Source of the DNA: a virus
Lineage: Duplodnaviria > Heunggongvirae > Uroviricota > Caudoviricetes
DNA: 14,054 nt
Strand: one strand, 5' to 3'
Virus record (IMG/VR): IMGVR_UViG_3300028988_000038
Each line of letters begins with the position of its first letter. Positions within the stretch are counted from its first letter, which is position 1. Below are positions 1-14,054 of the stretch, one piece after another. A program made the translations under genes and the position numbers. The notes below the pieces were generated by a model. The model was not told where the DNA came from. It saw only the letters and a list, made by a program, of their open reading frames with translations, and ran no database searches.

Positions 1-64
1 GCACGAATATAATGGTGGGTTACCACCAAACGAATCGGAAAATCGATACTGGAAAAAACTCTAA
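1..64 (+). CDS. IS3-family transposase OrfB, C-terminal fragment (5' partial)
   Basis: Frame starting at base 2 reads [20 protein letters not shown] then TAA at 62-64, identical to the C-terminus of the 272-aa OrfB ORF at 12835-13653. Confidence 0.8.
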   Translation, partial: HEYNGGLPPNESENRYWKKL

Positions 65-94
65 CTCGGTGGCCAGTTTTTGTTGACCACTTCA
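1..94 (+). mobile_element. IS3-family insertion sequence (IS911-like), right-end fragment; the rest lies upstream of the window
   Basis: Bases 1-94 are the exact reverse complement of 12805-12898 in the complete copy (checked by eye over 1-64). The element terminus ends ...GGCCAGTTTTTGTTGACCACTTCA at 94. Confidence 0.85.
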
Positions 95-541
95 CAGATA
101 GATGTGTTCAACGATTGGCTGCGGTGCAATGCTGGCTACCAGCAGCCCGGCCAGATCATCCGCTTCTGCATCTTTTGCAATGAGTTGGGTAACTCCAAGC
201 GCGGTCATCATTTTGAGGATGTATGGCTTCTGGATAGCAAAGCCTTCCTTCATCTTTTTCATATCAGGATCGTCGTCGCGATTTGCTTTGTAGTCCGGGT
301 AAAAGTCGCGACGCTTGTCACTAAATCCATCCCAAAGAATCATAGGTCGGGCATGGAGGATGGAGGCATAACGACGGACGTTCTTAACAAAGCCGAAAGC
401 AGCCTGTACTTCCATTTCGCCGTTGTGCAATTTGTCAGATTGTTGGTGGTAATAACCCAGGCTATTGCCATCTACGAAGAGATAATTCACCGGTACATTC
501 CTTCCAAAAAGTAAGGCGTCCGTAGACGCCTTACTGGTCAC
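92..541 (-). pseudogene. 5'-3' exonuclease / flap endonuclease (T4 RNase H - Pol I 5'-nuclease family), 3'-truncated by the IS insertion
   Basis: Translation carries FEN-type motifs: NYLFVDGNSLGYY, RRDFYPDYKANR and AEADDLAGLLV. The ORF stops about 17 residues after the EADD motif, and the stop codon (92-94) is supplied by the IS terminus, so the C-terminal half of the protein is missing. The true start is probably the GTG at 488-490 (SD GGAAGG at about 499-504) rather than the GTG at 539-541. Confidence 0.65.
506..535 (-). terminator. Intrinsic-terminator-like hairpin downstream of the gp32-like gene
   Basis: Perfect 11-bp inverted repeat, AGTAAGGCGTC (510-520) and GACGCCTTACT (525-535), with a 4-nt loop. 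On the minus strand it is followed by UUUUU (510-506). It lies 16 nt after the gp32-like stop codon. Confidence 0.5.
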
Positions 542-550
542 GTAATGGGA

Positions 551-1579
551 TTACAGAGAGTCCAGCTCTCTCAGTAGGTCATCCAGACCTTCATCTTCCG
601 TCGCAGATGCGGCTGCTACAGATGTCGCTGCGACTGCTTCAGACTCTTTGACTGATACTGCAACGGCAGCGGGACTTGCTTCTGGTTTAAATTCAGTTTC
701 AACGGCACGGAGGATTTCTTCATCAACCAGACTGGTTGGTTCAGAAGCTGGGGTATGAGCGGTAGCTACAGCAGTCGCACCCTCCGTATGACCAGTGACA
801 GAGCCAAATCCAGGTAGTGCCGCAGCCGATGTTTTCGCGGTTGAGGAAATTGCTGGTGCAGATGCTGCGGCAGTTGGTGCAGCGATGCCAATCAGACGAC
901 CCATAGTGCGAACTGTCGACAGAAGACGAGTTTCATCAGCCTGATTTGCGTATGCGATCAGATCATGCTGGGTGTTCCAGAATTTATCTTCGATATCGCC
1001 TTTGTAGACTTTACGCTTAGGCGAGACGTCATATTTGGTATCGCGACCAGAGCCAGTACGTTTAATCAGGAATGCGTAGCCTTCCTCTTTGCTCAGTGGA
1101 TTGCCGATATCATCAGCGATGTCTTCGGTGATTGCTTTGCAGATATCATCGAATACAGTAGACGGCAGCTCGATTAACTGGCATTTCTCAGCATCTGCGA
1201 AATCCTCACGAGCAGAAAGAATGCCGTTGACCAGGTAGCGAGGAGTGGCACGCATTTGACCGATGCGTTCTTCCATTGCTTTGTTACCCTTGTGACGAGC
1301 GCGACCTTCCATCACCATTTCGCATAGCTGACAAGCGCGACCGTGAGTATGTTGCTCACAAATATAAGCGTTGGTTGCTTCTTTACCTTCCTCGTTCTGA
1401 TACTTAACGTAGTGCATACCGAAAGTCTGGAAGAACTTACCGTTTGGGTCGTCTTTATTCGGGAAGATGCGGATATAGTTGACGCCGTCTTTTAAGCGAG
1501 TCAGATCAACGTTGTTACCACGTTTGGCGGCAATGTCTTCACGAGTTTTGTTAAGCAAATCAAGTAATGTCTTAGACAT
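551..1579 (-). CDS. Phage T4 gp32-like single-stranded DNA-binding protein
   Basis: YIRIFPNKDDPNGKFF resembles the T4 gp32 segment I recall as IRFLPSKNDEQAPFA. A Cys-x3-His-x5-Cys-x2-Cys zinc-site pattern (CEQHTHGRACQLC) is encoded at 1322-1360. An Ala/Ser/Thr-rich linker is followed by an acidic C-terminal tail (DEGLDDLLRELDSL) typical of SSBs. Strong SD AAGGAG precedes the ATG. Confidence 0.6.
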   Translation of the reverse strand: MSKTLLDLLNKTREDIAAKRGNNVDLTRLKDGVNYIRIFPNKDDPNGKFFQTFGMHYVKYQNEEGKEATNAYICEQHTHGRACQLCEMVMEGRARHKGNKAMEERIGQMRATPRYLVNGILSAREDFADAEKCQLIELPSTVFDDICKAITEDIADDIGNPLSKEEGYAFLIKRTGSGRDTKYDVSPKRKVYKGDIEDKFWNTQHDLIAYANQADETRLLSTVRTMGRLIGIAAPTAAASAPAISSTAKTSAAALPGFGSVTGHTEGATAVATAHTPASEPTSLVDEEILRAVETEFKPEASPAAVAVSVKESEAVAATSVAAASATEDEGLDDLLRELDSL

Positions 1580-1696
1580 GTGTTTCTCCTTGTTGTGATT
1601 TGGCCGATGGCGCTATGCGCGTTGGGCTTTCGTTCATTCGTGGCTCTTTCGAGCTGTTAAATGATAGATCAGTACTTACTTATTATCTATCAAAAA

Positions 1697-2152
1697 TCAA
1701 CGGGGAGTAATAAAGCGTTCAGAGCCTAATCGCTCTAATTCAACGATGGCCATCTTTGACGCCTGAACGATCATGTCTCGGCGATGCGAAAAGGCGGCGA
1801 CAGCATGTTTGTATATGTCTGCGATGTGCCGTGCTTCATCCAACTTCTGCCTTTTAGACAGATACTGTGGGTTTGTTTTAACCTTAGCGTCCAGTACAGA
1901 TTCGTTGAACTTAATGCCGTTCATACTCAAGTTCTTACGCTCTGTGTCGTATAGCTTTGCTTCAACAGCTTCAAGGTTAAGTTTTGCCTCTGCGACACTT
2001 CTTTCTGCATGAGCGAGTTTTGAGCCATACTCCATTAAAAGGCGGGGTTGTCTACGCCAGACTTCCTCCAGATTGTCTCGGTCAAACTCGAGATCAGACA
2101 TTATTTTCTCGTAAATATCGGCGATCATGCACATTTCCTTATCACTTATCAT
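1697..2152 (-). CDS. Hypothetical protein, predicted coiled-coil, in the replication operon
   Basis: 151-aa ORF co-oriented and tightly spaced between the DnaE C-fragment and the gp32-like gene. The sequence is charged and helical in character; no family is recognised with confidence. Confidence 0.45.
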   Translation of the reverse strand: MISDKEMCMIADIYEKIMSDLEFDRDNLEEVWRRQPRLLMEYGSKLAHAERSVAEAKLNLEAVEAKLYDTERKNLSMNGIKFNESVLDAKVKTNPQYLSKRQKLDEARHIADIYKHAVAAFSHRRDMIVQASKMAIVELERLGSERFITPR

Positions 2153-2254
2153 TTTGTATTGATTATATCATTGTAATGATGAGGCAATGAGCTTGAAGAT
2201 AGGGGGGGTGAGGGGATAAGGGAAAACATGGCCTTTATGGCCATGTTTATTGGA

Positions 2255-3424
2255 TCACGTCTTAATAGTTTCTGCTACGTCGGCTAATATCGCTTCTAGT
2301 CGTTCTCCCTCTTCAGGTCTGAAGTAAAGAATGTTGGGGTTAAACCCGTAAAAGACAGTAACGTCAAGGTCTGGAAGATACTCCTTCCTGCCGACCAAAT
2401 CGGATGGCTTGTTTTTGTTGTTAAACAATGAAGTTGCCCGGCTGCCACACGTCAGCACATAGGTCGGACGCACCAGATTGATCTCTTCACGCATAAAGTC
2501 GGTGAACTGGCCGATCTCGTCTTTGGTGTAGTCTTTTTCTTTGTCTTTAACCTTCTTGCAAACACCTGTGACATAGAGATCGCCCATGCGTAAATCTCCA
2601 GCCGTCAATAGCTTGGCCTTAAAGTCGTCGTATCCGTTCTCCATAAAGTAACCGGTTCGAGCATCATTGCCGTTCGCATTGTCCAGAATGATCATGATTT
2701 TCGGCTTAATACCAATGCTGGGGCGGATTAGTTCATCACCTAAGCCCATTTCAGCCGCCATCCGCGTCATGAGTACGTTAATTTCAGCCGAACGTTTGGG
2801 GTTCATCTCAAACGGACGTGAGGCTTTAACTGCGTCTATGACAAGGTTTCCCATCAATTCAGCCTGGTCGCGTAGGCGCTCTGGATCAGTTGCTGGCAGA
2901 CTGCCTGGCTCGATGGATGCAAACGCCCCTACTTTTTGCAGCGATTCGCGCACTCGACTATTACAGGCACGTTTCTCGACAGCTTCTTCGAATTGCGCCA
3001 GTGACTCGAATTTGCCGCCAACTTTTTCTCGCGCTCTCATGATGGCTTGGCAGCCATTCTCAGAACACCCCTTCACAGCAGAGAAGGGCGCATACAGCAC
3101 CTGGCTGCCATCTTCAAGCGTGCGGATCTCGATTCGGTTAGATGACACGTTAACGTCTGGTGGCAATACGCGAATGCCATAGGTCAGCGCATCTTTAACC
3201 AGCCCCTGGTGTTTATCTTCGCCAAGAATAGTGAGAGCAGCAGCGAAAAACTCTGCGGGATAATGAGTTTTCAACCACATAGATTGATAACTGATTAAGG
3301 AGTAAGCAACAGAGTGTGATTTGTTGAAGGCATACGCGCCGGATTTCTCAAACATATTCCAGATTTCTTCGGCTCGTTCGTGCGTCAGGCCATTGCTCTC
3401 TTCGACAACACCGGTAATTTTCAT
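2255..3424 (-). CDS. dnaE: DNA polymerase III alpha (DnaE family), C-terminal fragment with a degenerate UDG-like C-terminal domain
   Basis: [35 protein letters not shown] matches the DnaE motif [40 protein letters not shown] matches GLKILPPDIN. QAELMG (2849-2866) sits where the internal beta-clamp motif QADMF lies. Residues about 241-389 (2258-2704) follow a family-4 UDG pattern with altered catalytic motifs. Own SD GAGGTG (3430-3435) and ATG at 3422-3424. Confidence 0.8.
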   Translation of the reverse strand: [389 protein letters not shown]

Positions 3425-4155
3425 GCAGTCACCTCATCAATCTTCACGAACTCATACCCATTGGAGGCCAGCCAGTTCCGTTGGCGCTCCCAGCTCCATA
3501 TCTCTTCACGCATTTCACTATGCAGGCGAATGTGGGCGTCTTCTGGAAGTGCTACAAGATTCCCAGGGGCGTTATCTATCGTATCGCGGTTAATATGGTG
3601 GACATGTTCATCGTCACGTAGCTCCCGACCGAGACGTTCTTTCGCTATCAATCGATGAACGTATTCGTATTGCGAAACGCCATTGTTACCAACCAGCTGC
3701 ATCATGTAGCCGTTGGTTTTTACGATGATGCCACCTTTGTAGTTGTTCGCTTCTTCTCCGATCTTTCCGCGTTTGGCAGCCGCCAGCTTTTCCTTCGTCT
3801 CCGCGCGGATTGTTCTGCCGGTTAGCTTTTTCGAAACGGTGGCCACTCGCTCATCGATATCAGCACGCAGACCGGCATTCCACGAGGTTTTCCCATACAT
3901 AGGGTTGCCAGTGCCAGTCCGGGCTTCGGAGAGACGCTTCATACGTTCGTCATTATTTTTGTTTTTGCCACGATTCCAGGCTGGGGTAGCGGAGATCCGC
4001 GCGCTTCCGCGCCTGATCCCCCATTTGGCTAATAAGCGGTCAATATTTGCCTTGCTGCAACCAGCTTCGGCGGCAATGTCTTCTTTTCTCATCAGGTCAA
4101 CCATGTAACGCTGACGTAACCATTCTTCTGTGATTTTGTACTTCGTACTCGGCAT
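3421..4155 (-). CDS. HNH homing endonuclease with N-terminal HTH and NUMOD-like repeats
   Basis: C-terminal HNH motif EHVHHINRDTIDNAPGNLVALPEDAHIRLH. GNPMYGKTSWNAGL and basic repeats resemble the NUMOD-type DNA-binding modules of phage homing endonucleases. N-terminal HTH-like segment DIAAEAGCSKANIDRLLAKWGI. Sits between the two DnaE fragments; its stop overlaps the DnaE-C start (ATGA at 3421-3424). Confidence 0.8.
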   Translation of the reverse strand: MPSTKYKITEEWLRQRYMVDLMRKEDIAAEAGCSKANIDRLLAKWGIRRGSARISATPAWNRGKNKNNDERMKRLSEARTGTGNPMYGKTSWNAGLRADIDERVATVSKKLTGRTIRAETKEKLAAAKRGKIGEEANNYKGGIIVKTNGYMMQLVGNNGVSQYEYVHRLIAKERLGRELRDDEHVHHINRDTIDNAPGNLVALPEDAHIRLHSEMREEIWSWERQRNWLASNGYEFVKIDEVTA

Positions 4156-4203
4156 TTCTAAGACTCACTAAACAAATTGTTTTCTTATCTTATAAATTAA
4201 TTC

Positions 4204-6567
4204 TCAAATATCGAAGCTCGTTATGTCGGCATTTATTGCCATTGCTTCGGCATAAGTGCGACGCTCACCATCAGCACAAAGTAGGCGTGCTGCTTTATGG
4301 ATTTTTCTCGTAGAACCATCATCCAGTGACACTGTCACCCAGCCTTCCTCCGCTCGCTTAATGAAGTCGCCGCCAATGGATTTCATTTTCTCCATATCTT
4401 TTTTCCCGATCGCTTTCCTGACCGAGTCTGCTTCCGCCATTGAGAACCCCGCCAAGATTCGCGTAGCAGCCATGATCTGTTCCTGATAAATCAGAACTCC
4501 GTTTGTGTCGCGAGAGATGTCGTCCAGCATTGGGTGTAAGGAATGTGGGGCCATGAAGCCTTTGGCCACGGACACATAATCGTCCAACATGCCGGATTGA
4601 ATCGGGCCAGGTCGGAAGAGCGCAGTTGTAGCGACGACCGTTTTAAAGCTCATTGGCTCAATTCCACCACCTAAATCTTTAAGCAGCTTGCGCATTGGGC
4701 CTGATTCAAGCTGGAATACGCCCTGTGTATACCCTGCAGCAAAACCATCCAGCACCTTGCGATCTTCAAGAGAAATGGCATCAAGATTGATATCTTCACC
4801 TGTGTTCTCTTTTATGTAGCGTTTTGCACTATCGAGCAAATCGAGAGTTGCCAGGCCAAGCACGTCCAGCTTAATTAGGCCCATAGCCTCGCAGTAACGC
4901 TTGTCAAATGCGATACAACGCGCGTCACCACGGCGTTCAACCGGTGTACGTTCTGTCAGAGGAACACCTGCTACGATCATCCCTGCCGCATGTCTACCAA
5001 AGCCACGCATAAGGCTTTGTAACTTGCAGGCTGCATTGAATGCATCAGGATATTTTGTTGCGTATTTGTCGAGACTTGCCAGTTGTTCGCGCAGCTCTTC
5101 CAATGGAAGGCTATCATCCTCGACGTTCTTCAGTTCTTTTGATACCGCCATATCTGCGGACTCCACACCATAAATACGAGCGGTGTCACGTAGTGCAGAG
5201 GCTGCGCCCAGGTAGGTGAAGTTCGGAATGCCTGCAACGTAATCTTCGCCGTAGCGTTCATTCAGATACTCGATCACCTCATGGCGACGTGCCTGGCTGA
5301 AGTCCAAGTCCGCATCCGGCAAGTCGAGACGCTCAGGGTTGATGAAACGCTCAAACAGAAGACCGTGACGGATTGGGTCGACGTTGGTTATGCCTATGCA
5401 CCACGCCACCAGAGAACCGGCAGAGGAACCACGACCAGGCCCGACAGGAATGCCAGTTTCACGGCTGTGATTCATCAGATCGCGTACCATCAGGAAGTAA
5501 CCACAAAATCCCAGGCGAGTAAGCGTGTCCATTTCGTACTTAAGTCGCTCAACATAAACCCTGTTCTCAGAAGCAGGTGGTGTGTATCCAAACTCTTTTG
5601 TGGTAAGACGTTTACGCAGCCCTGCAACAGCCAGTTTCATCAGCGTTGCAGGTTCGTCGTCTGCCATCTTGGGCAGTGCTGGTGGCAATTCATGCCAGCG
5701 CCATGTGCAGGCATCGATAATGGAGTCCTGCGTTGTTGAGGCCATTGCAGCTGTTACCGGCACATCCATGCGAACGGAGAAGGCTTTAAGCGCCTCAAGG
5801 AGATGGCGACGACCATTGATGGCGTTATCTCGCTGGTGGGGGATACGCAGACGATGCGGCTGGTCGATTTTTATGTTGTTCGTAACCATGTGCGCAATGT
5901 CTTTAATGTCTGCATCGTCGATCGATTCGTAATAAGCGGGATAGAACGCTACTGGCTCTATTTTCAGTGCGCTGGCGACTTTCATCGCCCGGACGTTAAT
6001 CTGGTCGTAGAATGGGGTAGGGTGCGGATAAACCACACTATAGAAGTTGTCTTTTCCACCCGCTGTAATCAGTGTGCTTATGATTTTTGCAAAATCGTTG
6101 CGTTGGAACACGCTACCGATGTCGGAAGTAAGCAGGATGATGTTGCCTTTGGCATATGTAGAAACCAACTGTTCGAGCGAGAGACGCGGTACAAAGTAGA
6201 ACTGTTCTCGTGTGTTGGCCGCCGTCATTAGTTCGCAGATGTCGCGATATCCTTTCTCATTTTTAATTAGAGCGGTAAACGAGTAGTTACGTCCTCGCTC
6301 TAATGATTCCATACATCTCATAGATTCTTTAGCAAGTTTAGCCCGGTGCTCGTATGTGGGATCATCAACAATGTTTAGTTTCACACCACAAATAACCGCC
6401 ATGTCGTCACCAGCGGCACGTTGTAGTGGAATAACGCTCGCAATATTCATGCTATCTGCTGAAATTACAGCGGTGTAGCCAGCTTCTCTGGCAATCTTCA
6501 CCGCGTTTTCTGCTTTTAGAGCCGACTCCCCAAGTGAGAAGTCAGTTCGAACCATCAGTGCCTTCAT
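4204..6567 (-). CDS. dnaE: DNA polymerase III alpha (DnaE family), N-terminal fragment (PHP-like, palm/thumb and part of fingers)
   Basis: [68 protein letters not shown] matches the DnaE active-site region GYFLIV...[18 protein letters not shown]...[35 protein letters not shown] and [30 protein letters not shown] also match. The ORF ends with a 45-aa tail (4207-4341) that has no DnaE homology. Confidence 0.85.
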   Translation of the reverse strand: [787 protein letters not shown]

Positions 6568-6668
6568 GTGTTTTTACCTTTCTGGTTTTTTTGATTTTGT
6601 CATTGGGGAAGCCTACGAACTTCCCATGCATCGAAATCGCAACTTCTTTTGCTGATTGGTGACAATCG

Positions 6669-6695
6669 GGCTTGTCTGGACACACCAGACAAGCC
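6669..6695. repeat. Inverted repeat / hairpin in the CobS-DnaE intergenic region
   Basis: GGCTTGTCTGG (6669-6679) and CCAGACAAGCC (6685-6695), an 11-bp perfect stem with a 5-nt loop, inside a 180-bp spacer in an otherwise tightly packed operon. Confidence 0.5.
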
Positions 6696-6747
6696 TTACC
6701 TGTTTCAGAAGCAGCGATAAGAGAGCCGAAACATCCTTTACGCACGA

Positions 6748-7983
6748 TTAACCAAATATTTTTTGAACAACTTCACGAGCCGCTTGTGCAGAAGCTGAAG
6801 GGAGTTTGTTAATGAAAGAACGCTCAATACCTGTCACAAAGTCGCCTCGCATCATTCCAATCTTGGCTGACAACAAAAGTTCACGAGGGCCAATTGGCTG
6901 ACTAATAAGGTGTTCTTCGTATCCATCGCGAACGATACCGGCAAACTTAACCATCTTTTCAGCGTATTCATCCACGATGCCTGCATTTGTCAACATGTTG
7001 ATCTCTGCGTCTTTGCTCATGTATTTCACATTCGAAACGATGCCAAAACGCGAAAAGTTCGCGGCGTTCTGGATGTTTGTACCCTGGTACAAGCCGGTTT
7101 CATCACCAGATCCGTTCGTGTTGCCAGTGCCAATGAAAGCAAACCGTTCATGCGGAGTAATGCGACGCCATTCTGGAGTTGCCTCTTTGATGACCAACGC
7201 TTCACCTTCCAGCACTGGCTGATACACGCCAAGAATTTGTGGAAACGCAAAGTCGTATTCATCCGCGAGGTAAACCCAGCCATGCTTCATTGCGAGCGCA
7301 AGCAAGCCAGGTTCGAAATACGTAGAGCCATCACGCGCCAGAATTTGCCCCGTAACATGTGCCTCTTCCATTGATGCTGTATGTTGGGCACGGATCAACG
7401 GACGATTGAGCAAAGCACATAGCTGTGTAGGCAATGACGATTTGCCTGTTCCTGCATGACCCCACAAATAGCCAGGTATGCCAAGTTCAAGCATCATGAA
7501 AATATCTTTGATCAGTTCGAAGTCGCCATATACGTAGCCCTTCTTCACTTCTGGAACGAACTCTGGATACGGCGTATTGACGTTGACGCTAACCATGAGC
7601 GGCGTCCCACGTTTTGTTCCGAGTTCTTCCACCGTTACGTTTAGCAGTTCGTGAGCTGCGACCAGATCTGTCTTGTACTCAACTGTGCCTGTGTAGCCAG
7701 GGCTACTGGTCAAGACAGAAGATTTGGCCATTTCGCTTTTTTGCTCGGCACGTTTAGCTTGAATTGCATCAAGTGCCTTTTTCGATAGCGTTGGTTCATC
7801 TGGAAACTGCGTTGTGTACATTTTCAGTACGGTGTCAGGATCGGCATCTTTTACTGACTCAGGAATGCCCTCGCAATTACCATTGGCTACATGGGACTTA
7901 AAATAGTGAAATGATTTGCCGCACCACTTGCAAACAAGGTAATCAGAAGGATTTTTTTCATTTTGCAGTGCAGTAGTCGTCAT
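6748..7983 (-). CDS. CobS-like / MoxR-type AAA+ ATPase (AAA_5) with an N-terminal Cys/His zinc-finger-like motif
   Basis: Walker A GHAGTGKSS (about 7435-7461), Walker B VYLADEYD, and the downstream pattern RFAFIGTGNTNGSG...NFSRFGIVSNVKY typical of CobS/MoxR ATPases. N-terminal CKWCGKSFHYFKSHVANGNC. Confidence 0.7.
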   Translation of the reverse strand: MTTTALQNEKNPSDYLVCKWCGKSFHYFKSHVANGNCEGIPESVKDADPDTVLKMYTTQFPDEPTLSKKALDAIQAKRAEQKSEMAKSSVLTSSPGYTGTVEYKTDLVAAHELLNVTVEELGTKRGTPLMVSVNVNTPYPEFVPEVKKGYVYGDFELIKDIFMMLELGIPGYLWGHAGTGKSSLPTQLCALLNRPLIRAQHTASMEEAHVTGQILARDGSTYFEPGLLALAMKHGWVYLADEYDFAFPQILGVYQPVLEGEALVIKEATPEWRRITPHERFAFIGTGNTNGSGDETGLYQGTNIQNAANFSRFGIVSNVKYMSKDAEINMLTNAGIVDEYAEKMVKFAGIVRDGYEEHLISQPIGPRELLLSAKIGMMRGDFVTGIERSFINKLPSASAQAAREVVQKIFG

Positions 7984-8078
7984 GCGTTTTTCCTTTGTTC
8001 TCTAATGAGCGTTCAACTTCTTATATAAATATATCATTATATATCGTAAGTGGTTACTTATCGTTAAGGCTGTTTTGT

Positions 8079-10187
8079 TCACTTTAAAATGATACGAGAT
8101 AGTTCAGTAACTACAGATGAACCAAGACTATCAACGCTCGTTACCAGGGCATGATTTGAGTAAAATCTCTCCGGTGCGTCAGTCATGATGCCAATTGCCA
8201 TCAAATCAATATCAGTCTGCGTTTCAATTTGCTTCGCAACTGAACGCAAATGAGCGTCAAAACCTCTCCCAACAGCCCACGGCGCGCCATCACTCAGAAC
8301 AAGCATGATCTTCCTGTCCTCCATGCGACCGGAAAATAACGATGCAAGGCTGGCTATGCTTTCACCATCCACGTTATTAAGAAGTGGGAATGTGTAGCCT
8401 ACGCACCCCATACGTGAGCGAACTTCGCGAGAATTTACCTTTTCATTCCAATTTTTGATGATAGGTAGCATTAAAGATTCAAAGCGAGAGAACTCATACT
8501 TGACAGCCTTAAGTTCTCCTGCCGCCATATGACTACCAAATGTAGTGAAGCCGGTGATAATGTTGGGAACATTTATTCGATCAAGGGCATCGGCGATGGT
8601 ATATGCACTTGCAAGAGCCAGTTTAATCGTTATACCACTCATTGAACCTGATAAATCAATCACTTGTTGAACACAGGCGTTAACGGCTTTAGATTCTTCT
8701 TTTTTACGAAACACGCGAGCATCATTCATTGCTAATCTGTAGATACTAGAACCATGAATGCGCCCCCGACGCTGGCCCGGTATAAACTGAACTCTGTTTC
8801 TGCTTGCTATTGCTCGCTCCAGGTCTTTTGCCAGCGTCGACGAAACACCTGACGAAAGATGCTTTTCAATATATTTGTCGAAGAGCTGGTTGCCTTCAGG
8901 AACGATGCGATAGCGGCTGATTGGATATCCTCCCAAATCAATATCGGAGAATGTTTTAATAAGCCGTTTGATATGGGCTTCTGCCTGATCAATCGAGCCG
9001 ATGAAGTCGTATGAGCGATTGTATGGCCTGTATTCGCTTTTCGAGCTTTCTGTTAACTCGCTTTTAATCGTTTCGGATAGAGCATCTTCTGTCATGCCTC
9101 CGACTTCATCTTCTATGCTATCCAGCTCCTCTAAAGCCTCTTCCAGACTCATTTTTGACGGAGTTGGGATATCTGAAGAGCCATCTTCTGTCGTTTTTCT
9201 TTTTTCGTGGTCAGCGGTTAATGATTCTGACGCCGCGTTATCAGAAGCATCAGAATCTGATACCTCTTTATCATTTTCTGTATCATCGAATATTGTTTCT
9301 GATGATTCAGAATTATCTGAATCATCACTGTCGCTATTATCATGTTTGTACTTACTATGTGATTCTGATTTGATAGATTTGTGATTATCTAACACTGAGG
9401 GTGTCTCATGATCTTCGTTGTCTTCATTGTTTTCTCCAGAGGCATCCGTCTGGTCAGCGTCTGAAGGATCGGAAGTTTTTCCCGGAGCTGACTCCTTACC
9501 TTTGCTTTCACTTTCAGTGTCTTTGAGGATCTTAGCTATGGTCGCAGCCACCTTTACACAATCCTCGGTGCAAGACATGTTACGCACGGCCACATCGATA
9601 CCATGTTCTTTTAATAATGAAATTGGTTTCTCAATGACAGGCCAATGTTCATCCATGAAATCTACGAACGGTGCTTGGCCATCCCAGGCTCTTACAACCG
9701 GACAGAGAAAGAAGTTTAGAAAAAGCGCGCGCTGATCTTTGCCACAATAAGCAATAGCCTCTGAAGCCTTTGGTTTAAAGACTTTTTCGATTATAAGGCG
9801 CTGAGTTGCCATCAGATTACGTCTTGTTCCGTTAAAGACCTGACCCATTTTTCGCTCGATGAACACGTCTTCTAAGGCATTCCATAGCGACCAGGAAGGA
9901 ACGCGTCCTTTTTCTCTCATTTTGTTGGACACACGAATATCGGTAAACAAAATGTGAGCAACCTCATGATCGAGAAATCCGCGCACAGCATTCATCAATG
10001 CCGGTGTTGCGTTATCCGGGATTGATGGGATGTTTACGAAAATTGGCTCTCCATCATCGTTATAGCGTACATAAGCGTCGTCCCCTCGTTCTGCAACAGG
10101 GATGTTTTTACCTGAAAGGAGAGCGACTACTCGTTTTACACTGTCACGGAAGTCCTGAACCTCTTTGATGGAACGTTTTTTAGACAT
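8079..10187 (-). CDS. CobT-like protein with a C-terminal von Willebrand factor A domain
   Basis: MIDAS motif DLSGSMSG (8634-8657) and LVLSDGAP in the C-terminal vWA-type domain. Long Ser/Asp/Glu-rich acidic linker (about 9048-9515). N-terminal domain contains HEVAH (9954-9968). Sits immediately upstream of the CobS-like ATPase, as in CobS/CobT pairs. Confidence 0.7.
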   Translation of the reverse strand: MSKKRSIKEVQDFRDSVKRVVALLSGKNIPVAERGDDAYVRYNDDGEPIFVNIPSIPDNATPALMNAVRGFLDHEVAHILFTDIRVSNKMREKGRVPSWSLWNALEDVFIERKMGQVFNGTRRNLMATQRLIIEKVFKPKASEAIAYCGKDQRALFLNFFLCPVVRAWDGQAPFVDFMDEHWPVIEKPISLLKEHGIDVAVRNMSCTEDCVKVAATIAKILKDTESESKGKESAPGKTSDPSDADQTDASGENNEDNEDHETPSVLDNHKSIKSESHSKYKHDNSDSDDSDNSESSETIFDDTENDKEVSDSDASDNAASESLTADHEKRKTTEDGSSDIPTPSKMSLEEALEELDSIEDEVGGMTEDALSETIKSELTESSKSEYRPYNRSYDFIGSIDQAEAHIKRLIKTFSDIDLGGYPISRYRIVPEGNQLFDKYIEKHLSSGVSSTLAKDLERAIASRNRVQFIPGQRRGRIHGSSIYRLAMNDARVFRKKEESKAVNACVQQVIDLSGSMSGITIKLALASAYTIADALDRINVPNIITGFTTFGSHMAAGELKAVKYEFSRFESLMLPIIKNWNEKVNSREVRSRMGCVGYTFPLLNNVDGESIASLASLFSGRMEDRKIMLVLSDGAPWAVGRGFDAHLRSVAKQIETQTDIDLMAIGIMTDAPERFYSNHALVTSVDSLGSSVVTELSRIILK

Positions 10188-10285
10188 GGCTAATCCTTTG
10201 TTATGAAAACAAATTATTTACTAGTGTGTTTAATGTAGCACTGCGCGAACAGGGAACTAAGCCATTCGCGCAGGGAGAAGAGGGG

Positions 10286-10498
10286 TTAACAGATTCTGAC
10301 GGCTAAAGACCCGGAGCCGATATTGAGAAGCGTGAAGCGTTTGTTGTTAAGTTCGAATATAAAGCCAGTTGTGTCATTCACACCAACCTGAATCTGCTCA
10401 TTCGGTAGATCGGTGAGGATGTCAGCTACACACTCATCAGCTAATTTCTGTACGTGTCCGATCTCAAGAGCGATTAGGCTGGAAATAGTGGTGTTCAT
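10286..10498 (-). CDS. Hypothetical small protein (70 aa), first ORF of the leftward operon
   Basis: ORF immediately downstream of the divergent regulatory region and co-oriented with the operon; only a weak SD; no recognisable motif. Confidence 0.35.
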   Translation of the reverse strand: MNTTISSLIALEIGHVQKLADECVADILTDLPNEQIQVGVNDTTGFIFELNNKRFTLLNIGSGSLAVRIC

Positions 10499-10681
10499 TC
10501 AATCAATCCATTCTAACTTATACTATTACTATGGTAAGGAATACTACTAAAATTTATATCAATACTGAATACATTCATATCATATGCAAGTTAATTTTCT
10601 TACCTGTTTTGGGCTAATTTTTCTCCGTGCAATGGCCTTTAACCGGTCTTTTAAGTGCCTATCGAAAAAAATGATAATAGC

Positions 10682-10709
10682 TTTACAACCCTAACCTTTG
10701 ATGTAATAT
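10682..10709 (+). promoter_or_regulatory. Candidate sigma70-type promoter for the XRE regulator gene
   Basis: -35 TTTACA (10682-10687), 16-nt spacer, -10 TAATAT (10704-10709) preceded by TG. SD AAAGG at 10743-10747 and ATG at 10756. Confidence 0.4.
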
Positions 10710-10710
10710 C

Positions 10711-10724
10711 GGTAAGCACTTACC
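10711..10724. promoter_or_regulatory. Candidate operator: 14-bp palindrome GGTAAGCACTTACC
   Basis: Perfect 6-bp inverted repeat with a 2-bp spacer directly downstream of the candidate -10, overlapping the expected transcription start. Matching half-sites GGTAAG (10533-10538) and CTTACC (10599-10604) occur in the same intergenic region. Confidence 0.4.
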
Positions 10725-10755
10725 AGAGAGAATTGAACGCGCAAAGGTTGTAACA

Positions 10756-11142
10756 ATGTCTGACAACAAGATTGAATTTATAGAAAGTCGCTATGCTGCT
10801 TTTATCGCAGGGCTGATTGAATCCTCACCTATGAGTCAGGCCCAAATAGCCAGACTTATTGGTTATAAAAATGCCAACAACCTTTCTTTAATTAAAAGTG
10901 GCAAAATTCCTTTGCCTATCGATAAGGTTCGTCCGTTGGCGCTGGCGCTGGGTATTGAGCCAAGTCGTCTTATGATGATGGTGCTGGAAGAACGCCAACC
11001 TGAACTCGCAGCATTTTTATACAAAGAAGGCACCGCTCCTCTTAACGAGGACGAAAAACAGGTTCTTGCTGCATATAACGAGCGATTCGGTAAAGAGAAA
11101 GGCGCATCACAAAAGGTTGTTGAGGCCATAAAGTCTCTATGA
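10756..11142 (+). CDS. XRE-family helix-turn-helix transcriptional regulator (phage repressor/Cro-like)
   Basis: HTH signature MSQAQIARLIGYKNANNLSLIKSGK. Divergent from the replication operon across a 257-bp AT-rich control region; its 3' end overlaps the integrase 3' end by 6 nt. Confidence 0.6.
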   Translation: MSDNKIEFIESRYAAFIAGLIESSPMSQAQIARLIGYKNANNLSLIKSGKIPLPIDKVRPLALALGIEPSRLMMMVLEERQPELAAFLYKEGTAPLNEDEKQVLAAYNERFGKEKGASQKVVEAIKSL

Positions 11143-12240
11143 AAAATTTACACGAATAAGCTCTGTTGATAGACGATCTCCCTTGAATTTGTGGTCAATT
11201 TCGTCTAAATCCGGTTGCTCTACGATTGATGCGATGTACGTCGAGAAACTTTCTAAGGCGTCTCGCATCTCGTCCATATAATCGTGCCGGTCGTAGACTC
11301 GATCTATCCCCTCAAGACTGTGGTTCATGATTTTGCGTGATACCTCCTGGCTTATGCCTAATGCTGGGAAGTAACTACGCGCAGTGCGGCGCAAGTCTCG
11401 GGGTGTAAATGGCTCAAGCTCCATCAGTTCTGGTCGTTCCAGAATACGACGTAATGCCTGGGCTATTGCCACTTTAGACATAGGAAGGTCTTTCCCGATT
11501 TTTTTATTCGAAGGCACGAGCCACTGGCTGCCTTTACCGTATTCGAACAACTCTTCAATGCATGTGCGCATTAATGAGCTTAAAGGCAGAGAATGCTCAC
11601 GGGCAGATTTGTTCCTCTTGCCTTGATTCCAAACCCCACGCTTAAGATTGAACTCACTTTTTTTAGCCCGCAGTACTTCGTCAGGTCGTCTTGCGGATAC
11701 AAGACATAGCCTGGCCGCCCATTTTGTACCAGCACACACATTGAAGTAGTCCCATATATTCCAGAACACCCATACCTCTGCGTCGGTTAGCTTCCGCTCG
11801 CGAGGTGTGGGCTTTGCGCCACCGGCAACTTTGTTAAGTGACATATCGTTTAACGGTGACACGTCGATCATCCCCTGGAAGGCGCACCAGCTGAGGAACT
11901 GCTTCATCAGAGAGAAAACGCGGCGACCCATAACAATTTTGCCATCCAGTATTAGTGGGTTGACCAGTTGGTTCACCATGAACCTATTAATATCACTTAC
12001 TTTTACATCGGCAATGTGCGGCAAAACATGTATCAAAATACAATGAACAGCGATCTCTGGCCGACGTCTTGTTATCAGCAGAGATAAGCGAGTGAATAAC
12101 ATGAATGCGTCCGAGAATCTCATGTCATTGCTGACCTGGGAGATCATAACGGCCTGCATTTGAGATGCTCTTTCGAGATACTCAATCGCCTCTTTTGAGG
12201 TGTTCTCCGCAGCGCGTGCTCTGTCAAAGCTATTTTTCAT
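11137..12240 (-). CDS. int: Tyrosine recombinase / phage integrase
   Basis: C-terminal catalytic-domain pattern: an ARRPDEVL segment aligning with the box I Arg region, PRDLRRT aligning with box II, and NHSLEGIDRVYDRHDY with the candidate catalytic Tyr. 367 aa. Confidence 0.75.
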   Translation of the reverse strand: MKNSFDRARAAENTSKEAIEYLERASQMQAVMISQVSNDMRFSDAFMLFTRLSLLITRRRPEIAVHCILIHVLPHIADVKVSDINRFMVNQLVNPLILDGKIVMGRRVFSLMKQFLSWCAFQGMIDVSPLNDMSLNKVAGGAKPTPRERKLTDAEVWVFWNIWDYFNVCAGTKWAARLCLVSARRPDEVLRAKKSEFNLKRGVWNQGKRNKSAREHSLPLSSLMRTCIEELFEYGKGSQWLVPSNKKIGKDLPMSKVAIAQALRRILERPELMELEPFTPRDLRRTARSYFPALGISQEVSRKIMNHSLEGIDRVYDRHDYMDEMRDALESFSTYIASIVEQPDLDEIDHKFKGDRLSTELIRVNFS

Positions 12241-12285
12241 ATGACAATCACCGAGTTACGCCGATGCACTGTATAAGTAAACAGT

Positions 12286-12314
12286 ATATTAGGCATAGAT
12301 TCTTATAGGATCAA
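12286..12314 (-). promoter_or_regulatory. Candidate sigma70-type promoter for the integrase gene
   Basis: On the minus strand: -35 TTGATC (12309-12314), 17-nt spacer, -10 TAATAT (12286-12291), about 45 nt upstream of the integrase ATG (12238-12240). Confidence 0.35.
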
Positions 12315-12338
12315 GAGTAAAAGTAACTCATTTTCAGT

Positions 12339-12371
12339 AATGATTCCATACATAGTAGGTATGGAATCATT
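12339..12371. repeat. 13-bp perfect palindrome (AATGATTCCATAC / GTATGGAATCATT) with a 7-nt loop
   Basis: Arms at 12339-12351 and 12359-12371, followed on the plus strand by GTAGGCC and a T6 run (12379-12384). Upstream of the integrase promoter. Confidence 0.5.
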
Positions 12372-12490
12372 GTAGGCCTTTTTTATAAAATCTGTGATTC
12401 TTCTCAGGATAAATTATCTAAACTAAAAATTGTGTTTTGTGTTGGCATCTGCTTGAATAGACGCATGTTTATTCAGATATGGAATAATCA

Positions 12491-14018
<1,528 letters not shown>

Positions 14019-14054
14019 CTCTGTTCAGGTGGCCAAATTCAGTAAACCACTTCA
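14019..14054. repeat. IS terminal inverted repeat (left end, IRL)
   Basis: Reverse complement reads TGAAGTGGTTTACTGAATTTGGCCACCTGAACAGAGG; the window ends exactly at the last base of the element. Confidence 0.8.

What the first reader, a model, noticed from the sequence alone, without database searches (positions are those of the whole stretch)
92..541. The 5'-3' exonuclease gene is cut off by the IS insertion
The FEN-type ORF stops about 17 residues after its EADD motif, and the stop codon itself (92-94) is the last three bases of the IS terminus. The helix-3-turn-helix half of the nuclease is therefore missing from this locus. Either the element has lost this function (and depends on host Pol I or RNase H), or the other half lies beyond the left IS copy. 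A domesticated or defective element is the likely implication.
Basis: seen in the sequence. Interest (0 to 1): 0.4.

Follow-up and report, generated by a model that had tools for sequence, protein, structure and literature searches.

The report
IS-disrupted phage-plasmid flap endonuclease gene
A mobile insertion sequence (ISEc52) has landed in the middle of the 5'-3' exonuclease gene of an E. coli SSU5-type phage-plasmid and turned it into a pseudogene, which is an ordinary kind of event.

Summary
Window 95-490 (- strand) holds the first 132 codons of a 314-codon FEN/5'-3' exonuclease gene. Its stop codon (92-94) is the terminal TGA of an IS3-family element, ISEc52.

The interior of the window (95-12804) is 99.8-100% identical to the SSU5-group phage-plasmid pM160133_p3 over the stretches compared. 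There, and in 214 of 217 complete E. coli plasmids that carry the gene, the gene is one uninterrupted 945-nt ORF.

The break falls inside the N-terminal nuclease domain, just before the GDSD motif. Four of the nine conserved carboxylates and the whole H3TH domain are therefore cut off.

The missing half is not deleted. A gut-metagenome contig from the same BioProject as a contig identical to the window shows the other IS end, a 3-bp CTG target duplication, and codons 133-314 with no mismatches. This is a simple, recent transposition.

No natural short form exists: 129 of the 150 best homologue representatives are at least 290 aa.

Two corrections are needed. The real start is GTG 490, not 541. 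The ORF ends 20 residues after EADD, not 17. "Domesticated element" is not shown.

The finding is real, already explained and of low interest.

The parts
95..490 (-). 5' fragment (codons 1-132) of the phage-plasmid FEN / 5'-3' exonuclease gene. It retains D7, D53, E109, D111 and D112. It lacks D136, D138, D186, D189 and the H3TH domain.
   Evidence: Pfam PF02739 positions 2-118/164. 0 mismatches in 396 nt against intact WP_001108395.1 in pM160133_p3. Alignment to T5 FEN (1UT5/1EXN/5HMM) places the break between T5 L149 and I150, before D153/D155.
92..94 (-). TGA stop codon supplied by the first three bases of the ISEc52 right terminal repeat.
   Evidence: Read directly in the sequence. The intact allele has TTA (Leu133) at this position.
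95..97 (.). One copy of the 3-bp target-site duplication: CAG on the + strand, which is CTG (codon Leu132) in gene orientation.
   Evidence: The window junction reads ...TATCTG|TGAAGTGG. The complementary junction in L013 reads ...CCACTTCA|CTGTTAACAGG. The intact gene reads ...TATCTGTTAACAGG.
1..94 (+). Last 94 nt of the left ISEc52 copy: the end of orfB (...[20 protein letters not shown]) plus the right inverted repeat.
   Evidence: Identical to the last 94 nt of the complete copy at 12805-14054.
491..541 (-). It holds the terminator-like hairpin of the gp32-like gene (about 510-533) and the GGAAGGAA ribosome-binding site for GTG 490.
   Evidence: RefSeq start. Fold of -25.3 kcal/mol, z = -3.6.
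551..1579 (-). T4 gp32-like ssDNA-binding protein gene, the upstream neighbour in the same replication/recombination gene string.
   Evidence: PF08804 at E = 1.7e-66. phrog_1192.
12805..14054 (-). Complete second ISEc52 copy (1250 bp), inverted relative to the left copy, with its right repeat facing inward. It interrupts a 178-aa hypothetical gene.
   Evidence: 100% identity to annotated ISEc52 copies. TG...CA ends, imperfect inverted repeats and an A6G frameshift motif. HTH_Tnp_1 and rve domains. Breakpoint at pM160133_p3 position 26844, inside WP_077818713.1.

Best explanation
The window comes from an E. coli SSU5-group phage-plasmid that is nearly identical to pM160133_p3. A copy of ISEc52 (IS3 family, 1250 bp) transposed into the plasmid's FEN-type 5'-3' exonuclease gene between codons 132 and 133 and duplicated the 3-bp target CTG.

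The IS terminus happens to begin with TGA in frame, so translation stops immediately and gives a 132-aa fragment with no foreign tail. The fragment keeps the first carboxylate cluster (D7, D53, E109, D111, D112). It lacks the second cluster (D136, D138, D186, D189) and the H3TH DNA-binding module, so it should have no nuclease activity (inferred).

The 3' half (codons 133-314) persists as a promoterless remnant on the far side of an IS copy. Its first usable in-frame start is TTG at codon 179. The gene is therefore a recent pseudogene.

The element presumably continues to replicate as a plasmid using its Rep protein and host functions, namely the Pol I 5' nuclease and RNase H (inferred). Lytic replication and recombination, and possibly expression of the downstream 88-aa ORF and the RecA-like recombinase, are expected to be impaired or to depend on the host (inferred, not tested).
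For: Identity of the element:
- Window 95-1600 is 100% identical to pM160133_p3, and window 10200-12805 is 99.8% identical and collinear.
- The region is 97% identical to Escherichia phages CMS-2020a and PhiR41_1 and 82.5% identical to Salmonella phage SSU5, with the same SSB-exonuclease-hypothetical-recombinase gene order.

Intact gene:
- It is 314 aa with PF02739 at residues 3-166 and PF01367 at residues 174-244.
- It is uninterrupted in 214 of 217 complete E. coli plasmids that carry it.

The IS:
- It is 100% identical to annotated ISEc52 copies.
- It has TG...CA ends, an A6G frameshift motif, and HTH_Tnp_1 and rve ORFs.

Both junctions:
- The right-repeat junction is in the window. It is also in the independently assembled gut-metagenome contig L004, which has 0 mismatches to the window over 10.5 kb.
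- The left-repeat junction is in L013, with the CTG duplication and 0 mismatches in 552 nt to the intact 3' half. L013's backbone matches pM160133_p3 with 1 mismatch and 1 gap over 4 kb.

Catalytic residues were mapped by alignment to T5 FEN structures at E = 1e-15.

No short form: 129 of the 150 best 50%-identity representatives are at least 290 aa. The short ones are near-identical fragments or scattered partials.
Against: - The two junctions were seen on separate short-read contigs from two runs of one BioProject (ERR525812 and ERR525813), not on one molecule.
- Two inverted ISEc52 copies flank the 12.7-kb segment. The 3' half could therefore lie beyond either copy (an inversion isomer), and the window itself cannot show which.
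- Loss of activity of the 132-aa fragment and polarity on downstream genes are inferred from homology, not measured.
- Three further contigs (L005-L007) come from a backbone that is 1-2% divergent in L005 and L006; L007 differs at only 2 of 941 nt. They end at or 1 nt past the break without any IS sequence. The cause of the break in those assemblies is unresolved.
Confidence: 0.93

Rival explanations
1. This is a genuine short, single-domain nuclease, that is, a natural short form that only happens to abut the IS.
For: The exact 132-aa product occurs on 11 contigs and is deposited as 'exonuclease, partial'. PHROGs holds separate families for residues 1-186 and 183-314, so the gene is annotated in two pieces in some phage records.
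Against: - The stop codon belongs to the IS. The uninterrupted allele is identical in DNA up to the junction and reads on for another 182 codons.
- The break lies inside PF02739, at profile position about 118-125 of 164, not at a domain boundary.
- 129 of the 150 best representatives are at least 290 aa.
- SSU5 itself has 314 aa.
- The split seen in PHROGs is at about residue 185, not 132.
Confidence: 0.01
2. The junction is an assembly artefact: a chimeric contig end that joins plasmid sequence to a collapsed IS repeat, while the real gene is intact.
For: The window begins and ends in IS sequence, as repeat-bounded short-read contigs do. No complete E. coli genome or PLSDB plasmid carries this junction.
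Against: - The same junction was assembled independently in other samples (L004; 3 samples plus 5 similar places).
- The reciprocal junction exists with a perfect 3-bp target duplication, the signature of IS3-family transposition. A chimera would not produce a duplication.
Confidence: 0.03
3. Loss of the FEN gene is selected. Repeated independent knock-outs convert the phage-plasmid into a plasmid-only (domesticated) element or remove a costly nuclease.
For: Independent lesions occur in the same gene elsewhere:
- an IS1203 insertion at codon 168 in L014 (6 or more samples);
- a TTA-to-TGA change at codon 133 in L003;
- nonsense mutations and indels in L010-L012, L017 and L018.

The ISEc52 allele recurs in several samples.
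Against: - 214 of 217 complete plasmids keep the gene intact.
- Several of the indel variants come from low-coverage metagenome assemblies and may be errors.
- The look-ups were by exact fragment sequence, which selects for broken alleles.
- The rest of the window shows no decay.
Confidence: 0.08

Closest known systems
Phage T5 D15 flap endonuclease (PDB 1EXN, 1UT5, 5HMM) and the 5' nuclease domains of Pol I and Taq polymerase
   Same: The intact allele aligns over residues 2-217 at E = 1e-15. It conserves the DG, EADD, (T/S)xDxD and GDxxDN carboxylate motifs and the GVxGIG H3TH motif. It has the two-domain PF02739 + PF01367 architecture.
   Different: The copy in the window stops at the equivalent of T5 residue 149. 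It lacks the equivalents of D153, D155, D201 and D204 and the H3TH. It is a fragment, not an enzyme variant.
SSU5_058 'exonuclease' of Salmonella phage SSU5, and WP_001108395.1 of E. coli SSU5-group phage-plasmids (pM160133_p3, pR9-658-1)
   Same: It is the same gene in the same gene order: gp32-like SSB, exonuclease, 88-aa ORF, RecA-like recombinase. The first 396 nt are 100% identical in DNA to the pM160133_p3 allele.
   Different: These orthologues are uninterrupted 945-nt ORFs. The window allele carries a 1250-bp ISEc52 plus a 3-bp duplication after codon 132.
ISEc52, an IS3-family element related to IS911 (relation to IS911 recalled from memory)
   Same: It is 1250 bp with TG...CA termini and imperfect terminal inverted repeats. 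It has orfA (HTH_Tnp_1) and orfB (rve) with an A6G -1 frameshift motif, and it makes a 3-bp target duplication. It is 100% identical to annotated ISEc52 copies.
   Different: Nothing unusual. The only new detail is the insertion site, which is not present in 5,426 complete E. coli genomes or in PLSDB.

Membership tests
FEN / 5'-3' exonuclease family (PF02739 + PF01367) | N-terminal PIN-like (resolvase-like) nuclease domain | tested here: met
   PF02739 at E = 1.4e-16, but only profile positions 2-118 of 164 are present in the window ORF. The intact allele covers positions 2-159.
FEN / 5'-3' exonuclease family (PF02739 + PF01367) | C-terminal helix-3-turn-helix (SAM-fold) DNA-binding domain | tested here: not met
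   The window ORF gives no PF01367 match. The domain is present at residues 174-244 of the intact allele and in the separated 136-aa remnant on L013.
FEN / 5'-3' exonuclease family (PF02739 + PF01367) | Complete set of conserved active-site carboxylates (T5 FEN D26, D68, E128, D130, D131, D153, D155, D201, D204) | tested here: not met
   In the alignment to 1UT5, D7, D53, E109, D111 and D112 are retained. D136, D138, D186 and D189 lie downstream of the break.
FEN / 5'-3' exonuclease family (PF02739 + PF01367) | Structure-specific 5' nuclease activity | not testable with these tools
   This needs a biochemical assay of the 132-aa fragment and of the intact 314-aa protein.
IS3 family insertion sequence (ISEc52) | Length of 1.2-1.5 kb, 5'-TG...CA-3' ends and imperfect terminal inverted repeats | tested here: met
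   1250 bp. TGAAGTGGTTTACTG... at one end against TGAAGTGGTCAACAA... at the other.
IS3 family insertion sequence (ISEc52) | Two overlapping ORFs (HTH OrfA and DDE/rve OrfB) joined by a programmed -1 frameshift on A6G | tested here: met
   HTH_Tnp_1 at E = 7e-14 and rve at E = 1e-31. AAAAAAG at IS position 324, near the end of orfA. The frameshifting itself was not tested.
IS3 family insertion sequence (ISEc52) | 3-4 bp direct target duplication | tested here: met
   CTG flanks both junctions, in the window and in L013. The two junctions come from different contigs.
SSU5-group phage-plasmid | Collinear nucleotide similarity to SSU5 and to SSU5-like plasmids of about 105-115 kb | tested here: met
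   82.5% identity to SSU5 over 81% of an 8-kb query. 97% identity to Escherichia phages CMS-2020a and PhiR41_1. 99.8-100% identity to the 113-kb plasmid pM160133_p3. All E. coli matches are on plasmids and none on chromosomes.
SSU5-group phage-plasmid | Presence of phage structural/lysis genes and a plasmid replication/partition module on the same replicon | not tested
   The window holds only the replication/recombination module. The source replicon beyond the IS copies is not available.

The most novel reading that the evidence does not exclude
The FEN gene of SSU5-group phage-plasmids may be a recurrent target of inactivation: ISEc52 here, IS1203 and nonsense or frameshift alleles elsewhere. 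Losing it might lock the element into the plasmid state or relieve a cost, which would be a first step of domestication. In addition, the two inverted ISEc52 copies could make the 12.7-kb replication module an invertible or mobilisable cassette.
Probability: 0.08. Interest if true: 0.4.

Novelty: already known. Interest (0 to 1): 0.1.

Why it matters
It matters little beyond annotation. The ORF should be labelled as the 5' fragment of an IS-disrupted pseudogene with its start at 490, not as a short nuclease. The element should be recognised as an SSU5-group phage-plasmid carrying two recent ISEc52 insertions.

IS gain and loss is already reported as the main difference between otherwise near-identical SSU5-group plasmids (bioRxiv 10.1101/2025.09.12.675607, legend of Fig. 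S9).

The allele could serve as a natural knockout. It would allow a test of whether the phage-encoded FEN is needed for plasmid maintenance as opposed to lytic growth.

Tried and rejected
- I searched complete E. coli genomes and PLSDB for the exact IS-FEN junction. No record covers it, so the source replicon could not be read across the IS.
It succeeded through the cluster-member id P0048.
- Natural short form: rejected.
- L003 as a collapsed-IS scaffold: rejected. It differs from the intact allele by a single T-to-G change (TTA to TGA), and no mixture of IS and intact k-mers can produce that. It is an independent nonsense allele or a sequencing error.
- Group I intron as the cause of the dnaE split: Rfam gave no match at gathering thresholds anywhere in the window.
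- The simple terminator scan did not report the hairpin at 510-533. Direct folding shows it.
- L015's apparent rearrangement looks like a palindromic contig-end artefact and was not pursued.

Full report
**What is in the window**

The window is a 12.7-kb stretch (95-12804) bounded by two copies of one insertion sequence.
- The left copy is represented only by its last 94 nt (1-94, + orientation).
- The right copy is complete (12805-14054, - orientation, 1250 bp) and ends exactly at the window end.
- The 94 nt on the left are identical to the last 94 nt of the right copy.

The IS is 100% identical to copies that RefSeq annotates as 'IS3-like element ISEc52'. It has the following IS3-family features:
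- TG...CA termini and imperfect inverted repeats;
- an HTH_Tnp_1 OrfA and an rve (DDE) OrfB;
- an A6G frameshift motif near the end of orfA.

Both copies have their right repeat facing inward.

**The host element**

The interior of the window encodes, all on the - strand unless noted:
- a gp32-like SSB;
- a UvsY-like protein;
- a DnaE-type polymerase split by an HNH endonuclease gene;
- a CobS/CobT-like AAA+/VWA pair;
- a tyrosine recombinase;
- an HTH regulator, on the + strand.

Evidence that this is an SSU5-group phage-plasmid:
- Every E. coli match is on a plasmid of about 105-115 kb and none is chromosomal.
- The best match, pM160133_p3 (NZ_CP022167.1, 113 kb), is collinear from window 95 to 12804 at 99.8-100% identity.
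- The same region is 97% identical to Escherichia phages CMS-2020a and PhiR41_1 and 82.5% identical to Salmonella phage SSU5.

**The observation**

The ORF 92-541 (-) exists. It matches PF02739 (5'-3' exonuclease N-terminal domain) at E = 1.4e-16, but only over profile positions 2-118 of 164. It has no PF01367 (H3TH) match.

In gene orientation the junction reads ...GAACACATCTATCTG|TGAAGTGGTCAAC.... The TGA stop is therefore the first three bases of the IS right repeat.

In pM160133_p3 and pR9-658-1 the gene is a single 945-nt ORF (WP_001108395.1, 314 aa). Window 95-490 has 0 mismatches to its first 396 nt. The intact protein reads on as ...EHIYL|LTGDSDWLQL....

There are two corrections.
- The annotated start is GTG at 490. 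It aligns with the N-terminus of T5 FEN and with Pfam profile position 2, and GGAAGGAA lies just upstream. GTG 541 sits before a strong terminator-like hairpin that follows the SSB gene. The fragment is 132 aa, not 149 aa.
- EADD is at residues 109-112, so 20 residues follow it, not about 17.

**What the truncation removes**

The intact protein has PF02739 at residues 3-166 and PF01367 at residues 174-244. The break lies inside the first domain, not between domains.

I mapped the catalytic residues by alignment to T5 flap endonuclease structures (1UT5, 1EXN, 5HMM; E = 1e-15).

| Residue(s) in this protein | T5 FEN equivalent | In the 132-aa fragment? |
|---|---|---|
| D7 | D26 | yes |
| D53 | D68 | yes |
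| E109, D111, D112 | E128, D130, D131 | yes |
| D136, D138 | D153, D155 | no |
| D186, D189 | D201, D204 | no |
| GVGGIG (194-199, H3TH) | H3TH motif | no |

The fragment ends at the equivalent of T5 L149. The T5 numbering comes from the full-length chain in the alignment. The role of these carboxylates in metal binding is established knowledge of the family, recalled from memory. Loss of activity is an inference.

**Where the other half is**

The exact 132-aa product occurs on 11 public contigs.
- L004, a human-gut metagenome contig from ERR525812 (PRJEB6456), has 0 mismatches to the window over 10.5 kb. It runs 126 nt into the IS at the FEN junction. Its length of 12,961 nt fits a similar IS overhang at the far end, but I did not read that end.
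- The double-IS arrangement, marked by the fusion ORF at the right junction, is on 5 contigs.

Gene callers would call a 136-aa C-terminal remnant starting at TTG, codon 179. It is on 24 contigs.
- L013, from ERR525813 in the same BioProject, begins with 126 nt identical to the ISEc52 left end. These are followed by CTG and then TTAACAGGCGATAGC....
- That is the Leu132 codon duplicated, followed by codons 133-314, with 0 mismatches in 552 nt to the intact allele.
- L013 then continues into the 88-aa ORF, the RecA-like gene and the type I R-M genes, exactly as in pM160133_p3 (1 mismatch and 1 gap over 4 kb).

The two junctions share a 3-bp CTG target duplication, the signature of a single IS3-family transposition. 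The 3' half was therefore separated from the 5' half, not deleted.

One caveat applies. The two IS copies are inverted, so homologous recombination between them could flip the 12.7-kb segment without changing any junction sequence. Short-read contigs cannot tell whether the 3' half lies beyond the left or the right copy in a given molecule.

I searched the 132-aa fragment against 1.84 billion 50%-identity representatives. There were 559 hits, and 129 of the best 150 are 290-386 aa.
- The 13 hits shorter than 200 aa are of two kinds. Eight are fragments of this same gene: seven at 85-98% identity and one at 69%, several of them matching only part of their own length. Five are scattered partials at 34-47% identity, and none is 132 aa long.
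- 214 of the 217 complete E. coli plasmids with the gene have it uninterrupted.
- The orthologue in phage SSU5 (SSU5_058) is 945 nt.

No natural short form ends at this position. PHROGs does hold separate families for residues 1-186 and 183-314, which implies a two-ORF annotation in some phage records. That split is at a different place and was not followed up.

**Mechanism and consequences**

Shown here:
- the insertion, the duplication and the premature stop;
- the loss of four conserved carboxylates and of the H3TH domain.

Inferred:
- The fragment is inactive.
- The 3' remnant is not expressed as a useful protein. An in-frame TAA in the IS left repeat lies upstream of it, and there is no start codon before codon 179.
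- Operon transcription toward the 88-aa ORF and the RecA-like gene would have to cross the IS antisense, so it may be reduced.
- Plasmid-state replication probably does not need this gene, because the allele recurs in several samples. Lytic replication may be impaired or may depend on the host Pol I 5' nuclease, by analogy with T4 rnh mutants (recalled from memory, not checked).

'Domesticated element' is not supported. Apart from the two IS hits and the HNH-split dnaE, which pM160133_p3 shares, the window is essentially identical to an intact phage-plasmid.

**Comparison with what is known, and verdict**

This is an IS-disrupted gene, a routine event. A survey of SSU5-group phage-plasmids describes elements that differ only by gain or loss of insertion sequences (bioRxiv 10.1101/2025.09.12.675607, legend of Fig. 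S9). The truncated product is already deposited as 'exonuclease, partial [Escherichia coli]' (HDT5085731.1, HDW0349922.1).

The only mildly interesting point is that other assemblies carry different lesions in the same gene:
- an IS1203 insertion at codon 168 (L014);
- a TGA nonsense codon at codon 133 (L003);
- several indels.

These were retrieved by a look-up that selects broken alleles, and some are likely assembly errors. Novelty is nil and interest is low.

Noticed in passing
window 2255-6567 (-), especially 3328-4382: The DnaE-type polymerase gene is split into a 787-aa ORF (4204-6567) and a 389-aa ORF (2255-3424) by a free-standing HNH/NUMOD3 endonuclease gene (3421-4155). pM160133_p3 has the same arrangement and annotates one piece as a pseudogene. 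pR9-658-1, L005 and SSU5 have a single ORF of 1172 aa. About 1054 nt replace 260 nt of the unsplit allele. Rfam gave no intron match. It looks like a homing-endonuclease insertion that yields a two-piece polymerase.
   Followed up: partly
window 12491-12838 (+) and 12805-14054 (-): The second, complete ISEc52 copy interrupts a 178-aa hypothetical gene (WP_077818713.1 in pM160133_p3) after about codon 104. This creates a 115-aa fusion ORF whose last residues are read from the IS repeat. That fusion protein occurs on 5 public contigs, all 10-20 kb.
   Followed up: partly
window 1-94 and 12805-14054: The two ISEc52 copies are inverted with both right repeats facing inward, so the 12.7-kb replication/recombination module is flanked like a composite or invertible segment. 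Inversion would leave all four junction sequences unchanged, so short-read assemblies cannot detect it.
   Followed up: no
L003 10396-10401: A metagenome scaffold with a backbone about 2% divergent carries TTA-to-TGA at codon 133 of the same FEN gene, with no IS. It gives exactly the same 132-aa product by a different lesion, and the rest of the gene follows directly. It may be a real nonsense allele or a sequencing error.
   Followed up: partly
L014 1-45 (Logan SRR23217322 and 5 or more other samples): A different IS3-family element is inserted in the same FEN gene at nt 502 (codon 168) in another plasmid lineage. Its terminal 29 nt are identical to IS1203 ends in O157:H7. L010-L012, L017 and L018 show nonsense or indel alleles.
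   Followed up: partly
L005, L006, L007 (contig ends): Three contigs end exactly at, or 1 nt past, the FEN break without containing any IS sequence. One is from an NCBI E. coli isolate assembly. L005 and L006 lack the HNH insertion and are 1-2% divergent from the window; L007 is only 941 nt and differs at 2 positions. The cause could be the same insertion site, allele heterogeneity or assembler behaviour. It is unresolved.
   Followed up: partly
L003 11214-13552; L014 741-3080; L015 872-3211: In some lineages the RecA-like recombinase gene two genes downstream of FEN carries an intein with a LAGLIDADG endonuclease domain. The protein is 779 aa there, against 357 aa elsewhere.
   Followed up: no
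L001 1-1815 / L013 2315-6678: In pM160133_p3 and L013 a type I restriction-modification gene set (HsdM, HsdS, DUF4268) sits where other plasmids of the group have an intact SPFH/Band_7 gene. The SPFH gene is reduced to a 63-aa remnant.
   Followed up: no
window 1697-2152 (-): A 151-aa ORF between dnaE and the SSB gene has no Pfam hit and a weak PHROG match to UvsY-like recombination mediators (E = 1e-4). Phage Cyrano lists 'UvsY recombination mediator' among the annotations in the matching region. Together with the gp32-like SSB and the RecA/UvsX-like gene, this suggests a T4-style recombination module.
   Followed up: no
intact FEN (L001 3452-4396): PHROGs v4 contains separate families that match residues 1-186 (phrog_32545) and 183-314 (phrog_30319) of this protein. 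The gene is therefore annotated as two ORFs split near residue 185 in some phage records.
   Followed up: no
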